Below are positions 19,593 to 59,448 of a DNA stretch of 64,000 nucleotides, in pieces. The stretch's first letter is position 1; every line of letters begins with the position of its first letter. The notes under the pieces were generated by a model. The model was given only the letters and a program-made list of their open reading frames with translations, did no database searches and was not told the origin of the DNA. Origin of the DNA: a virus. Its lineage: Duplodnaviria; Caudoviricetes. Made by a program: the position numbers and the translations under genes. The DNA lies in the IMG/VR virus record IMGVR_UViG_3300037851_000141, positions 256,001-320,000 of that record; one strand, given 5' to 3'.

Positions 19593-19713
19593 ACCCGTGT
19601 AGCTCAGATGGCAGAGCGAGAGCCTTCTGCGGAGATTATAGGAATATATTGGGTTCGAATCCCAATCTCTGCTCCAAAGCTCTAGGTCGGAGGTTCAAGT
19701 CCTCTCACGGGCG
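19593..19713 (+). tRNA. Interrupted tRNA, most simply Arg(UCU) (alternative register Trp(CCA)), with a 48-nt insert in the anticodon loop
   Basis: ACCCGTG/CACGGGC acceptor, GCTC/GAGC D stem, AGAGC/GCTCT anticodon stem, GGAGG-TTCAAGT-CCTCT T arm. Deleting 19629-19676 gives the loop CT-TCT-AA. Confidence 0.85.
19629..19676 (+). ncRNA. tRNA-Gly-like minihelix nested in the anticodon loop
   Basis: GCGGAGA / T-TATA-GGAA-TATA / TTGGG-TTCGAAT-CCCAA / TCTCTGC-T-CCA. Confidence 0.8.
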
Positions 19714-57083: not shown

Positions 57084-58007
57084 TTATAGGCCGCGATTGA
57101 AGATGTCAACAAAGGTCTTCACCGAATCCGCCCAATTGTTAGACTCTCCCGTATAATCAGTCCGTCCATGACACTTGCGGAAAAGAACTGGCAAATGAGA
57201 CTCGGCACCAACTTGAACGTAAAGACTGTCAGTATGAAGAGTTATCTCACCACAGACAGCATCACCAGCAGGATTAGAACGAACATCATACTTGTCATCA
57301 TCCAACTTCATCATCTTACGAGCAAACAACTTAAGGAATGTCTTTGCCTTGATATGTAGTTCCTTCTTGGCAAAATAATCTGGAGCCTTTTCCTTATATA
57401 CCTTAATCGCTTCATCCACCCTGGTAGCATAAAGAGTCAGGGTATTAGCATCAATGTCAAGTTCACCATTCTCACTAACTATAACATCATCAGCAGTAGC
57501 AGGCACATCCTTGAAAGTATAGGTCCGACCATCCTCTGTGACTGCCGCCCTAACAGTAGTAGGTTCATCAGTCTTGACAGGTTCAGTCTTTCCACTCTTA
57601 TATTTGATATACTCGGGATGCTCAACTACCCAAGCAGGAGGCCGCCCCCGATTACCAAGAGTATAAGTAGCGCCCTCGGGACCAGTAAGAACAACTGGCT
57701 TGGATTCAACTACTGGAGTCGGTTCATTTTTAGCGACGTTAGTATCAGCAACTTCAGTAGACTTGGTAGAAACATAGTCAGGATGCGAAAGAACCCACTC
57801 AGGAACTCGCCCACGTTGACCAATCACATAGAGACGGTCATTAGCCTTATCGACAATGACCTTTGAATCAGGATACTCAGACTTGGCAACTAATACCCTA
57901 TACTTGAGTGATGATTCAACCCAGGCTGGAACCCGCCCACGTTGACCAGTTGTATAGGTTGCGCCATCTGGACCCTTGATTACGACACCGGCTGGAATGG
58001 TAGACAT
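57084..58007 (-). CDS. Protein with three tandem H-NS-like DNA-binding motifs plus a C-terminal domain
   Basis: YTTGQRGRVPAWV, YVIGQRGRVPEWV, YTLGNRGRPPAWV. Confidence 0.65.
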   Translation of the reverse strand: MSTIPAGVVIKGPDGATYTTGQRGRVPAWVESSLKYRVLVAKSEYPDSKVIVDKANDRLYVIGQRGRVPEWVLSHPDYVSTKSTEVADTNVAKNEPTPVVESKPVVLTGPEGATYTLGNRGRPPAWVVEHPEYIKYKSGKTEPVKTDEPTTVRAAVTEDGRTYTFKDVPATADDVIVSENGELDIDANTLTLYATRVDEAIKVYKEKAPDYFAKKELHIKAKTFLKLFARKMMKLDDDKYDVRSNPAGDAVCGEITLHTDSLYVQVGAESHLPVLFRKCHGRTDYTGESNNWADSVKTFVDIFNRGL

Positions 58008-58117
58008 GATTGGACTCCTTTGTATGGCCGGATTATATGATCTGATTTAGAGAGTCAAGCACCCATTTTCCTTTTGACTTACAGTTATTTCATAGTATAG
58101 GCGAACAAGATATAAAA

Positions 58118-58150
58118 ATAAACCTAACCCCTTTTGAGGATTAGGTTTAT
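58118..58150. terminator. Terminator closing the 58.1-58.8 kb RNA locus
   Basis: ATAAACCTAACCCCTTTTGAGGATTAGGTTTAT. Confidence 0.7.
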
Positions 58151-58159
58151 GACAGACTT

Positions 58160-58290
58160 GGAAGCAGAGGATCAGGCGAATAGTACTACCAGACACGCCT
58201 GCCGCTCGTTGCGTTGCATATAACGGGGGTTTTATTCTCAAGGAAGTTTCTTCAACATGAGAATGGTAGTTTCGTTTTTATCATGCTTCC
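58160..58290 (-). ncRNA. Structured RNA motif, copy B
   Basis: GGAAGCA/TGCTTCC closing stem, ATTCTCA/TGAGAAT, CAGGCG/CGCCTG, ACTACC/GGTAGT cross-pairing. Confidence 0.7.
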
Positions 58291-58303
58291 AAGTTGTCAA
58301 TGA

Positions 58304-58486
58304 TGGTGGCCCTTGTAGGATTTGAACCTACTGCCAAGATGAATGTAGGAAGCCACTCCTTGTTTCATTCCTGGCGTCTACCTGACTTCCGCAATGGCTT
58401 TTTATCAATAGGAACTTAGTCTTGTTCCGGTTATGCGGTACTGCGGGCCATATATAGAGTTATCAAAAAACTTCAGGTAGTGGGCC
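58304..58486 (-). ncRNA. tRNA-like element with a CCA end and oversized arms
   Basis: GTAGG-TTCAAAT-CCTAC T arm followed by AAGGGCC-A-CCA; 5' GGCCC; CTACCTGA/TCAGGTAG and GCCAGGAATGAA/TTCATCTTGGC arms. Confidence 0.6.
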
Positions 58487-58674
58487 GAGGTTTTGTCTAT
58501 ACCCCGGTTTCTCCTGCCAGAGCGGACAATTTGTGAAAAGATGGAGGCAGCCACCTTTTCTTTTGTCGTCCCTATAATGCCCACTGTTCCTTATCAAAAA
58601 ACCAGAGAAGGTTCCCCTGATTTTTTATACAACTGATGGGTATCTAATCCACCAGTTGTAAAAGAAAGGACTAG

Positions 58675-58791
58675 GGAAGCAGAGGATCAGGCGAACAGTA
58701 CTACCAGACACGCCTGCCGCGAACTTTGCTTTGTATTCTCAAGGAAGTTTCTTCAACATGAGAATGGTAGTTTCGTTGTTATCTTGCTTCC
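58675..58791 (-). ncRNA. Structured RNA motif, copy A
   Basis: Same helices as copy B; starts just downstream of the promoter at 58806-58833. Confidence 0.7.
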
Positions 58792-58805
58792 TTTCGTCCT
58801 GCTGT

Positions 58806-58833
58806 ATCTTACTGGTCTTTTTTAGTTTGTCAA
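58806..58833 (-). promoter_or_regulatory. Promoter of the RNA locus
   Basis: TTGACA-N16-TAAGAT. Confidence 0.6.
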
Positions 58834-59043
58834 GAGCCGTTTCAATCGTAGTCAAGCCGCTTCTTTTTTCTACGATCCTTCCGCCGCAAGTCCTTTTTAG
58901 TAGGCTTCTTAGGAACAGAATAGCCAGGACCAGACTGCCGCTTTTGCTCAATCTCACGCTCGCGGCTGATCTTGCGGATGTCTCGGGCAATATCCTTCAT
59001 TTTGTTTCCTTATGCTTTGGATTATATGTCTATTTTCACAGAG

Positions 59044-59448
59044 TCAAACGATTTTAGCCCAGCCCGCTTCCGTAGTAAAATAAAACTTGATACATCCAAA
59101 CTTCTTCATCAACTCATAACAACGATTACAAGGCTTGGACAACTTAATTTCACCCTGCCTATTCAACCGTATATTGATTATCTCCCAACTCTTACGAAAA
59201 TCAATAATACCTTTCAACTTGGTCAAAGCCCTAAATTCAGCATGACGAGTGGAAGGCAACGCAGTATCACGCTTACAACGATAACCAAAATAACTCGGAG
59301 GCTCACCAAAATCATTCATAGCATACCCAATAATACTATCATCCTGAACAATAAAAGCCCAATGAAGAAACGACCCAAACGTGGTAGGATGCTTCGGCAA
59401 AGTCCTATGAGCCGTTTCCAAAGCCGAATCCAAAAGTGCTTTCTTCAT
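59044..59448 (-). CDS. Zn-dependent deaminase-fold protein
   Basis: HAE ... SKPCNRC (HxE / PCxxC). Confidence 0.8.
   Translation of the reverse strand: MKKALLDSALETAHRTLPKHPTTFGSFLHWAFIVQDDSIIGYAMNDFGEPPSYFGYRCKRDTALPSTRHAEFRALTKLKGIIDFRKSWEIINIRLNRQGEIKLSKPCNRCYELMKKFGCIKFYFTTEAGWAKIV

What the first reader, a model, noticed from the sequence alone, without database searches (positions are those of the whole stretch)
58160..58791. Duplicated pseudoknotted RNA motif bracketing a roughly 650-nt non-coding transcript
Seen: two copies (117 and 131 nt, about 515 bp apart) keep the closing stem, two hairpins and an ACTACC/GGTAGT cross-pairing. They differ mainly in linkers: copy B gains a hairpin and extends its outer stem to 11 bp. 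A promoter (58806-58833) and terminator (58118-58150) frame the locus. Each copy has a CGAAAC...GGTAGTA arrangement like hammerhead stem III, but no intact CUGAUGA. Inference: a multi-domain phage ncRNA whose repeated units could be ribozymes, processing signals or protein sponges (such as antitoxin mimics).
Basis: partly seen in the sequence, partly recalled or inferred. Interest (0 to 1): 0.78.

Follow-up and report, generated by a model that had tools for sequence, protein, structure and literature searches.

The report
Swappable RNA cassette duplicated around phage tRNA-mimic
The two repeats are real copies of a self-folding 117 to 131 base RNA module at both ends of a conserved tRNA-like non-coding RNA gene in a 332-kb phage. 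Related phages lack the module, carry it once, or carry a different module in its place, so it is an optional swappable cassette and not a recognisable ribozyme.

Summary
Observation confirmed. Copies at 58791..58675 and 58290..58160 (minus strand) are near-identical outside one linker. They start and end exactly at a 7-bp closing stem, and a promoter and a terminator frame the locus.

New result from four related phage contigs and three more read sets. The core of the locus is a conserved non-coding RNA ending in a tRNA-like domain, with 8 compensatory pairs. The repeated module M is dispensable:
- A phage 90-95% identical in the flanking genes has the core RNA, promoter and terminator but neither copy.
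- A distant relative has M only at the 3' site, 95.7% identical, while the neighbouring RNA is about 50% identical.
- At the 5' site that relative and another carry an unrelated pseudoknot-type module N, with 4-5 compensatory pairs.

In this phage M replaced the interior of N inside N's own frame stem.

All 14 variable positions of M lie outside its predicted helices. There is no covariation, and the pseudoknot is not distinguishable from a nested fold. There is no Rfam match (no hammerhead, twister, HDV, GOLLD, ROOL or Y RNA) and no copy anywhere else searched.

Best reading: an exchangeable, structure-constrained accessory RNA domain, or small RNA released by tRNA-type processing. Its biochemical role is unknown. 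A MITE-like element, an RNase III-type processing signal and a ribozyme remain as rivals. The scan's first-stage readers had flagged this same stretch again, and the tRNA mimic inside it (e1-5369836, e1-5369826, e1-5369837), but no look-alike on other DNA.

The parts
58806..58833 (-). Sigma70-type promoter of the ncRNA unit (TTGACA, 16 nt, TAAGAT)
   Evidence: The -35 and -10 boxes are kept at the same spacing in L012, L011 and L009, with a variable spacer.
58663..58804 (-). 5' insert relative to the close relative L012/X2/X4. It comprises the frame stem AGGAC (58800..58796) / GUCCU (58671..58667), the internal loop GAAA/CUA, and module M copy A.
   Evidence: Joint 58662->58805 skips 142 nt in contigs of two studies; pairwise alignment. 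The frame sequences GCAGGACGAAAGGAAG and TCCCTAGTCCTTT are identical in L011, where they enclose module N instead.
58675..58791 (-). Module M, copy A (117 nt)
   Evidence: 148 bits with model R1; 95.7% identical to the L011 copy.
58595..58662 (-). Hairpin 1 (58659..58629), followed by a terminator-like hairpin with a U tract and the first GUUUUUUGAUAA word
   Evidence: Fold; compensatory changes in hairpin 1 between ours and L012; repeat D4.
58450..58594 (-). Middle structured domain of the core RNA, ending in the second GUUUUUUGAUAA word
   Evidence: Fold z-score -6.2 for the whole locus; 94% identical in L012 and partly conserved in L009.
58304..58449 (-). tRNA-like domain: 5-6 bp acceptor stem, expanded arms, canonical T arm (GTAGG-TTCAAAT-CCTAC), then A and CCA
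   Evidence: Fold z-score -4.9. 27 consensus pairs, 8 with compensatory change in 4 sequences. Not called by ARAGORN or by the Rfam tRNA/tmRNA models.
58151..58303 (-). 3' insert relative to L012/X5/L009. It comprises TCAT, the frame UGACAACUU (58299..58291), module M copy B, the frame AAGUCUGUC (58159..58151), and a second TCAT overlapping 58152..58149.
   Evidence: Joints 58150->58304 (X2) and 58148->58300 (X5, 4-nt ambiguity). Empty sites in X5 and L009 read TCATAAACC. The same insert sits at the same site in L011 and in X3.
58160..58290 (-). Module M, copy B (131 nt; 14-nt insertion and rewritten linker)
   Evidence: 168 bits with R1.
58113..58150 (-). Intrinsic terminator of the unit
   Evidence: Conserved, with compensatory changes, in L011; present in L012 and L009.

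Best explanation
The locus is one early-type transcription unit: a sigma70 promoter, about 690 nt with no coding capacity, and an intrinsic terminator. Its conserved core is a structured RNA that ends in a 146-nt tRNA-like domain.

The two repeats are paralogous copies of a self-contained RNA cassette, M. M folds on itself behind its own closing stem, so it can be added to, removed from or swapped at either end of the core without disturbing it.

Shown:
- M is optional and exchangeable among related phages.
- The 3' copy occupies a site that also carries M in a distant relative.
- The 5' copy sits inside the frame stem of a different 5' module, N, and has replaced N's interior.
- Changes in M avoid its helices.

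Inferred mechanism:
- The frame stem starts at or within a few bases of the transcription start. The 5' cassette therefore gives the RNA a fully paired 5' terminus.
- The 3' cassette lies 4 nt behind the CCA of the tRNA-like domain. Ordinary tRNA-type processing (RNase P at the 5' side, an endonuclease in the UCAU trailer) would release it, together with the terminator hairpin, as a separate compact RNA.
- I therefore read M, and N, as an accessory, structure-constrained RNA domain or small RNA. It would act as a nuclease-resistant end structure or as a protein-binding decoy, and it moves between phages and between the two ends of the gene by short-homology recombination.
- It is not a member of any known self-cleaving ribozyme family.
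For: Anatomy and duplication.

M is optional:
- Contig L012 (= X2) is 90-95% identical in the flanking genes, 94% in the core and 99% in the tRNA-like domain. It has TAAGATA-AG-TTTACAAC at the 5' site and CCACCA-AACAAT-ATAAACC at the 3' site.
- X4 lacks the 5' insert, X5 lacks the 3' insert and X3 has the 3' insert.
- L009 has no 3' insert.

Exchange:
- L011 and L009 carry module N at the 5' site, with 4-5 compensatory pairs in two sequences.
- The frame sequences around N in L011 are identical to those around copy A here.
- N is absent from this genome.

Constraint or recent transfer:
- M in L011 is 95.7% identical to copy A. The same two genomes are 46-51% identical in the core RNA, 75% behind M, 68% in the deaminase gene and 86% in the 52-codon gene.
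- All 14 variable positions fall in the 51 of 117 unpaired positions. For the 6 positions outside the linker, P is about 0.007.
- The two changes in the 3' frame of L011 keep the stem by moving the bulge.

Real RNA gene:
- Covariation in the tRNA-like domain and in N.
- Whole-locus fold z-score -6.2.
- Conserved promoter and terminator.

Not a known family.

Context: the region evolves by cassette gain and loss. Repeated promoter cassettes were seen, and L012 has an extra 66-codon gene cassette. This is as described for T4-type phages in PMC2839356 and PMC4122927.
Against: - No transcript data: no RNA run holds the sequence, so the strand, the start site and the processing are inferred from the promoter, the terminator and the T-arm/CCA orientation only.
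- M has no compensatory change in any helix. There are only three full copies and one partial copy, all more than 95% alike. Its fold therefore rests on complementarity and on where the changes fall.
- All 33 or more predicted pairs of M are Watson-Crick, with no G-U pair. This gives no strand information and would also suit a DNA palindrome.
- A domain that a 94%-identical phage does without cannot be essential.
- The high identity to L011 could simply reflect recent horizontal transfer of selfish DNA.
- The end-protection or decoy function is inference only.
Confidence: 0.5

Rival explanations
1. M with its outer frame is a small non-autonomous DNA transposon (MITE-like). It would be about 143-147 bp with imperfect inverted ends (TGACAACTTGGAAGCA ... 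TGCTTCCAAGTCTGTCA) and would be mobilised in trans. Its RNA fold would be a by-product of its palindromic ends.
For: - Clean presence/absence between near-identical phages.
- The 3' insert is flanked by TCAT on both sides, and the empty sites in X5 and L009 carry one TCAT.
- 13-16 bp imperfect inverted ends starting TG and ending CA.
- Far higher identity between distant genomes than their background.
- No G-U pairs in any helix.
Against: - M has been seen at only two sites, both inside one ncRNA gene, across all the genomes found. There is no other copy in this 332-kb genome, in IMG/VR, in a JGI metagenome word scan (chance hits only) or in a GTDB genome word scan (chance hit).
- Copy A lacks the outer inverted ends and any duplication. 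It sits in the frame of module N, so it is not a transposition product.
- Changes avoid the internal hairpins, which a transposon would not need.
- A 4-nt repeat flanking a hairpin is equally what slippage deletion would use.
Confidence: 0.2
2. The cassettes are processing signals. Their long closing stems would be cut by a double-strand-specific nuclease (RNase III type), trimming the primary transcript. This resembles the intervening sequences of bacterial 23S rRNA or the RNase III sites of T7.
For: - Copy B has a closing helix of about 15 bp, plus 3 bp after a small internal loop. Copy A and N have two stems separated by an asymmetric internal loop.
- Strain-variable presence in a structural RNA gene is what is known of rRNA intervening sequences (my own knowledge).
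Against: - The three frames differ in length and loop geometry: 5+7 bp, 5+5 bp and 15 bp.
- The conserved interior (hairpins, ACUACC/GGUAGU) would be unnecessary for a mere cleavage stem.
- The core RNA is made without them in L012.
Confidence: 0.13
3. Each copy is a self-cleaving ribozyme of an undescribed class. The pair would release a unit-length RNA (about 515 nt) whose ends reconstitute one module, allowing ligation or circularisation by the phage RNA ligases.
For: - The direct-repeat layout resembles retrozymes and viroid-like multimers (my own knowledge).
- CGAAAC ... GGUAGUA resembles the hammerhead GAAA plus stem III plus cleavage triplet.
- The phage encodes RNA ligases 1 and 2 and a P-loop kinase.
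Against: - No match to any ribozyme model at E<=10, nor in the relatives.
- The CUGANGA box is absent (CUGAUCC), and there is no room for stems I and II in the hammerhead order.
- Relatives have one copy or none, so a two-site release cannot be the conserved function.
- N at the 5' site is unrelated by model search.
Confidence: 0.07
4. M is a decoy or scaffold RNA for a specific protein of the phage RNA toolkit, for example its Ro60 orthologue, acting as a further kind of Y-like RNA.
For: - The genome encodes a Ro60 orthologue (TROVE plus the Ro60 vWA domain), a CCA-adding-type nucleotidyltransferase and a YrlA-like RNA.
- M and N share with YrlA the layout of an outer stem, an internal loop and an inner 7-bp stem closing a structured body.
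- A conserved, highly basic 52-residue protein gene sits directly upstream in all relatives.
Against: - No Y RNA, YrlA or YrlB model matches the locus, even at E<=10.
- The internal-loop sequences differ from the YrlA consensus.
- The Ro60 gene lies about 124 kb away.
Confidence: 0.1

Closest known systems
PeSL regulatory cassettes and modular shuffling in T4-type phages (Arbiol et al. 2010, PMC2839356; Comeau et al. 2014, PMC4122927)
   Same: The host is a T4-like phage (rIIA, rIIB, RNA ligases 1 and 2). Closely related genomes differ by clean insertion, deletion and replacement of small cassettes in a region full of repeated sigma70 promoters and stem-loops. Direct repeats lie a few hundred bp apart.
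   Different: PeSLs are promoter-plus-terminator DNA motifs that flank protein genes. M is a 117-131 nt internally structured RNA body with its own closing stem. It lies inside a non-coding transcript, and changes avoid its internal helices.
Hammerhead ribozyme (Rfam RF00163, RF00008, RF02275-7)
   Same: M has a GAAA followed by a 6-bp helix whose 3' strand ends GU-A, like stem III with a cleavage triplet. M occurs as direct repeats flanking a non-coding unit, as in retrozymes.
   Different: There is no CUGANGA box, no stem I or stem II in the required order, and no model match at E<=10.
Bacterial and phage Y RNAs (YrlA RF02553, YrlB RF02565) with Ro60
   Same: The phage encodes Ro60 and a YrlA-like RNA. 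M, N and YrlA are all compact RNAs closed by a stem, an internal loop and a second stem. The core of this locus is a tRNA mimic.
   Different: No model match. The loop sequences are unlike. The tRNA-like domain here keeps the normal tRNA strand order and a CCA end, whereas YrlA is permuted and lacks CCA.
Transcribed palindromic MITEs (Correia and ERIC elements) and 23S rRNA intervening sequences (my own knowledge, not checked in papers here)
   Same: These are 100-150 nt elements with inverted ends. They are co-transcribed, fold into hairpins, and are present or absent between strains.
   Different: Those occur in many copies at many loci. M is known from two sites of one gene and has conserved internal hairpins. 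One copy arose by replacing another module.
T4 small stable RNAs (species 1 and 2, rnaC/rnaD), co-transcribed with tRNAs (my own knowledge)
   Same: These are small structured RNAs of unknown function, made from a tRNA-type operon in a T4-like phage and released by tRNA-processing enzymes.
   Different: No sequence similarity was found to any deposited phage. The cassette-like gain, loss and replacement has not, to my knowledge, been described for them.

Membership tests
Hammerhead ribozyme | Conserved CUGANGA box between stems I and II | tested here: not met
   The only near match is CUGAUCC, in which G8 and A9 are replaced.
Hammerhead ribozyme | GAAA, then stem III, then NUH cleavage triplet | tested here: met
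   CGAAAC-UACC ... GGUAGU-A forms a 6-bp helix followed by A.
Hammerhead ribozyme | Three-helix junction in the cyclic order box, GAAA, NUH, and a significant covariance-model score | tested here: not met
   Only 8 nt lie between the putative cleavage site and CUGAUCC, which leaves no stem I. No hammerhead model matches at E<=10 on either strand.
Other self-cleaving ribozymes (twister, twister-sister, pistol, hatchet, HDV-like, hairpin, glmS) | Match to the family covariance model | tested here: not met
   No match at the gathering score, at E<=10 in 57900-59100 or at E<=1 in L009/L011. Self-cleavage itself is not testable here.
GOLLD / ROOL / other large phage ncRNAs | Match to the Rfam model | tested here: not met
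Type III toxin-antitoxin antitoxin RNA | Tandem array of short (about 34-36 nt) repeats next to an endoribonuclease toxin gene | tested here: not met
   There are two 117-131 nt copies 515 bp apart, not tandem. The neighbouring proteins show no toxin family.
Y RNA (YrlA/YrlB) | Match to RF02553/RF02565, including the Ro-binding stem and loop | tested here: not met
   No match in the window or in the locus at E<=10. The genome's own YrlA-like RNA is found elsewhere.
Y RNA (YrlA/YrlB) | Ro60 (TROVE) protein encoded by the same genome | tested here: met
   A 581-residue ORF has TROVE (39.7 bits) and vWA_Ro60 (45.7 bits). It lies about 124 kb away.
MITE-like transposon | Terminal inverted repeats | tested here: inconclusive
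   The 3' insert has imperfect 13-16 bp inverted ends. Copy A shares only the inner 7 bp.
MITE-like transposon | Target-site duplication, with an empty site in relatives | tested here: inconclusive
   TCAT flanks the 3' insert, and there is a single TCAT at the empty sites of X5 and L009. There is none at the 5' site. Slippage deletion gives the same pattern.
MITE-like transposon | Multiple copies at unrelated loci | tested here: not met
   Only the two copies in the genome. None in the IMG/VR, JGI or GTDB word scans.
tRNA / tmRNA (for the central domain) | Recognised by ARAGORN or by the Rfam tRNA/tmRNA models | tested here: not met
   Only the T arm, the 5-6 bp acceptor stem and ACCA are tRNA-like.

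The most novel reading that the evidence does not exclude
M, and its counterpart N, would represent an undescribed kind of portable RNA domain. It would be a self-folding, possibly pseudoknotted cassette that moves between the ends of non-coding RNA genes of jumbo phages and is kept by selection on its fold. Its role could be a nuclease-blocking cap, a decoy for a host or phage RNA-binding protein, or a new self-cleaving motif. This would amount to domain shuffling at the level of RNA genes.
Probability: 0.15. Interest if true: 0.8.

Novelty: new variant of a known kind. Interest (0 to 1): 0.5.

Why it matters
Phage non-coding RNAs are poorly charted. This locus gives a natural experiment: near-identical phages with zero, one or two copies of a structured RNA cassette, and relatives with a different cassette in the same frame.

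If the cassette has a function such as end protection, a decoy role or cleavage, the natural variants say exactly which constructs to compare.

If it is selfish, it would be a rare case of a mobile element specialised to the ends of an RNA gene.

Either way, the result shows that structured RNA genes in T4-like jumbo phages evolve by modular gain, loss and replacement of whole folded domains.

Tried and rejected
- Rfam at the gathering score on the whole window, at E<=10 on the locus and at E<=1 on relatives L009/L011: only chance-level microRNA and snoRNA hits.
- blastn of the locus against deposited phages: no match.
- Exact-word scans of IMG/VR for two M words, for the tRNA-like domain pattern and for an N pattern: nothing.
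- The promoter-plus-frame pattern gave four hits, which neither the M model (R1) nor the N model (R2) matched, so I treated them as chance.
- The T-arm word hit only a true tRNA(CAU) in an unrelated contig.
- The JGI metagenome 19-mer scan gave two chance hits inside ABC-ATPase genes.
- The GTDB genome 20-mer scan gave one chance hit inside a Psychrobacter coding region.
- The single-protein IMG/VR scans (word patterns, close relatives only) with the downstream 307-residue protein and with rIIA found no relatives.
- The homologue of the 307-residue protein on L002 has a coding gene and a promoter upstream, not the ncRNA.
- The contig of P0007 could not be read.
- No RNA holder was listed for the stretch in public runs, so expression could not be examined.
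- Thermodynamics could not separate the pseudoknot from the nested fold.
- Group I intron reading of the inserts: rejected. They are too small, and no boundary within the 4-nt ambiguity gives both a U before the insert and a G at its end.
- Coding reading: rejected. The copy B insertion is 14 nt, and indels in L012 break the 59-codon frame of the core.
- IS200/IS605-type element: considered. The two internal hairpins are unrelated to each other, which is unlike the left-end and right-end hairpins of that family.
- RtcB is not found in the genome.

Full report
**What is there**

The window is part of a 331,849-bp virus record. The phage is T4-like: it encodes rIIA, rIIB, RNA ligases 1 and 2 and a QueC-like protein. 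It has no close relative among deposited phages.

On the minus strand, between a 52-codon gene (59000..58842) and a 307-codon gene (58007..57084), lies about 830 nt with no credible ORF. In order it contains:
- a sigma70-type promoter at 58833..58806;
- copy A of the repeat, 58791..58675, 117 nt;
- a hairpin and a terminator-like hairpin;
- a middle structured stretch;
- a 146-nt tRNA-like domain, 58449..58304, with a canonical T arm and an ACCA end;
- copy B, 58290..58160, 131 nt;
- an intrinsic terminator, 58150..58118.

The whole stretch folds far better than shuffles, with a z-score of -6.2.

**Check of the observation**

The repeats are real and not chance. Homology starts exactly at GGAAGCA and stops exactly at TGCTTCC, the two strands of the closing stem. 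They are the only two copies in the genome.

Copy B has a 14-nt insertion in the linker and a longer outer stem. The hammerhead-like CGAAAC...GGUAGUA is there, and the CUGAUGA box is not.

The one over-statement is 'pseudoknotted'. The ACUACC/GGUAGU pairing can equally be part of a nested fold of equal or lower computed energy.

**The decisive evidence: relatives**

Laying contigs of four public metagenome runs on the locus showed contigs that carry the promoter, the core RNA and the terminator but skip both modules:
- Joint 58662->58805 skips 142 nt. It was seen in two studies.
- Joints 58150->58304 and 58148->58300 skip 153 and 151 nt. Each was seen in one study.
- A third run has a contig running continuously from the tRNA-like domain into copy B.

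I then fetched real sequence through neighbouring proteins.

*L012* (the 7,810-nt contig seen):
- It is 90-95% identical to this phage in the flanking genes, 94% in the core RNA and 99% in the tRNA-like domain.
- It reads TAAGATA-AG-TTTACAAC at the 5' site and CCACCA-AACAAT-ATAAACC at the 3' site.

*L011*, a more distant relative (deaminase gene 68%, core RNA 46-51%):
- It has M once, at the 3' site, with the same flanks and 95.7% identity to copy A.
- At the 5' site it has a different module of about 70 nt, N.
- N sits between frame sequences (GCAGGACGAAAGGAAG ... TCCCTAGTCCTTT) that are letter-for-letter those around copy A here.

*L009*:
- It has N at the 5' site and nothing at the 3' site.
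- Its junction reads TCATAAACC, like the empty site in run X5.

N is itself a real structured RNA, with 4-5 compensatory pairs between its two known copies. It is not found in this genome.

**Reading of the history**

The frame stem AGGAC/GUCCU with a 5' module is present in three of the four lineages. M at the 3' site is present in three genomes: ours, X3 and L011.

The simplest account is an ancestor like L011, with N at the 5' end and M at the 3' end. In this phage, M then replaced N's interior by recombination at the few shared letters (GGAAG ... TCC). L012-type phages lost both modules.

Recent horizontal spread of M is an alternative that the data do not exclude. Either way, M is optional and exchangeable.

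The surrounding DNA behaves the same way. There are repeated promoter cassettes, and L012 has an extra promoter-plus-66-codon-gene cassette. This is the modular shuffling described for T4-type phages (PMC2839356, PMC4122927).

**Is M a functional RNA or just mobile DNA?**

For function:
- All 14 positions that vary among the three full copies and the X3 fragment lie in the 51 unpaired positions of 117.
- For the 6 positions outside the linker, the probability is about 0.007.
- The two changes in the 3' frame of L011 keep the helix.
- M is far better conserved between ours and L011 than anything around it.

For mobile DNA:
- The presence/absence pattern is clean.
- TCAT lies on both sides of the 3' insert, with one TCAT at empty sites.
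- The inverted ends are imperfect and run TG...CA.
- There are no G-U pairs at all.

Against a transposon:
- M is known from only two sites, both in this gene.
- Copy A lacks the outer ends and any duplication.
- No copy turned up elsewhere.

I therefore favour a structure-constrained accessory RNA domain that moves by recombination (0.5) over a MITE-like element (0.2).

**How it probably works (inferred)**

The frame stem begins at or within a few bases of the expected start site. The 5' module would therefore give the transcript a fully paired 5' end. This is a known way to slow 5'-end-dependent decay (general knowledge of RNase E and RppH).

The 3' module starts 4 nt after the CCA. Maturation of the tRNA-like domain would release it, with the terminator, as a separate compact RNA. 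Whether that RNA caps, decoys or cleaves is not known.

The phage has a rich RNA toolkit that could supply partners:
- Ro60;
- a CCA-adding-type enzyme;
- a YrlA-like RNA;
- two RNA ligases;
- a P-loop kinase.

However, no Y RNA model matches M.

**Comparison with known families**

No Rfam family matches M, N or the core.
- Hammerhead membership fails on the catalytic box and on helix order.
- Type III antitoxin membership fails on repeat size, tandem layout and the lack of a toxin gene.
- GOLLD, ROOL and Y RNA fail on the models.

The closest analogies are functional or evolutionary ones: PeSL-type cassette shuffling, transcribed palindromic MITEs, rRNA intervening sequences and the T4 small stable RNAs.

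**Verdict**

- The new finding is that the duplicated motif is an optional, swappable RNA cassette. Natural zero-, one- and two-copy variants exist, and a second, unrelated cassette can occupy the same frame.
- Function is unknown. The interest is moderate.

Noticed in passing
window 58842-59000 (-): A 52-residue, very basic protein gene lies upstream of the ncRNA promoter in all four relatives. It is directly upstream in three of them; in L009 a 72-codon gene is inserted in between. It has no Pfam family and could be an RNA-binding partner.
   Followed up: partly
window 58304-58331 (-) and L006:6009-6036: The last 28 nt of the tRNA-like domain (T arm, acceptor 3' strand, ACCA) are identical to the 3' end of a true tRNA(CAU) in an unrelated 222-kb IMG/VR contig. 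This suggests that the domain descends from a tRNA gene.
   Followed up: partly
window 58030-58058 and 59019-59047: A repeated early-promoter cassette (TTGACTCT...ATATAATCC) stands in front of the neighbouring genes. In L012 an extra cassette with a 66-codon gene lies between the ncRNA terminator and the 307-codon gene (L012:1830-2140).
   Followed up: partly
G000:C1 about 188950-190696 (L019:4951-6696) and L019:8640-9980: The phage encodes a Ro60 orthologue (TROVE plus the Ro60 vWA domain) and, about 2 kb downstream, a CCA-adding / poly(A) polymerase family enzyme. No RtcB was found.
   Followed up: partly
L020:1161-1288 (G000:C1 about 180460-180587): A YrlA-like Y RNA (E 4e-10, below the Rfam gathering score) lies inside a tRNA cluster.
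   Followed up: partly
L021:478-780 (G000:C1 about 179177-179479): Two adjacent modules of about 147 nt lie between tRNAs. Each is closed by a long terminal stem of different sequence, and both share UGAUAG(G)UUGAC after the 5' strand. They are another self-contained RNA module type in this genome and are not matched by the M or N models.
   Followed up: no
window 58186-58191 / 58701-58706 versus 58438-58443 (-): The large loop of M contains GUACUG (GUACUA in copy B). This is complementary to the invariant CAGUAC just after the acceptor strand of the tRNA-like domain. It may be a chance 6-mer.
   Followed up: no
window 19593-19713 (+): Rfam calls a 121-nt tRNA that ARAGORN misses. Earlier notes of the scan describe it as a tRNA-Arg with a mini-tRNA-shaped insert.
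   Followed up: no
run X2, 293-nt contig against window 58260-58293: A short contig from the groundwater sample matches 34 nt of the 5' part of M with 4 mismatches and then diverges. It is either chance or a diverged M-like element in another context. The contig could not be fetched.
   Followed up: no
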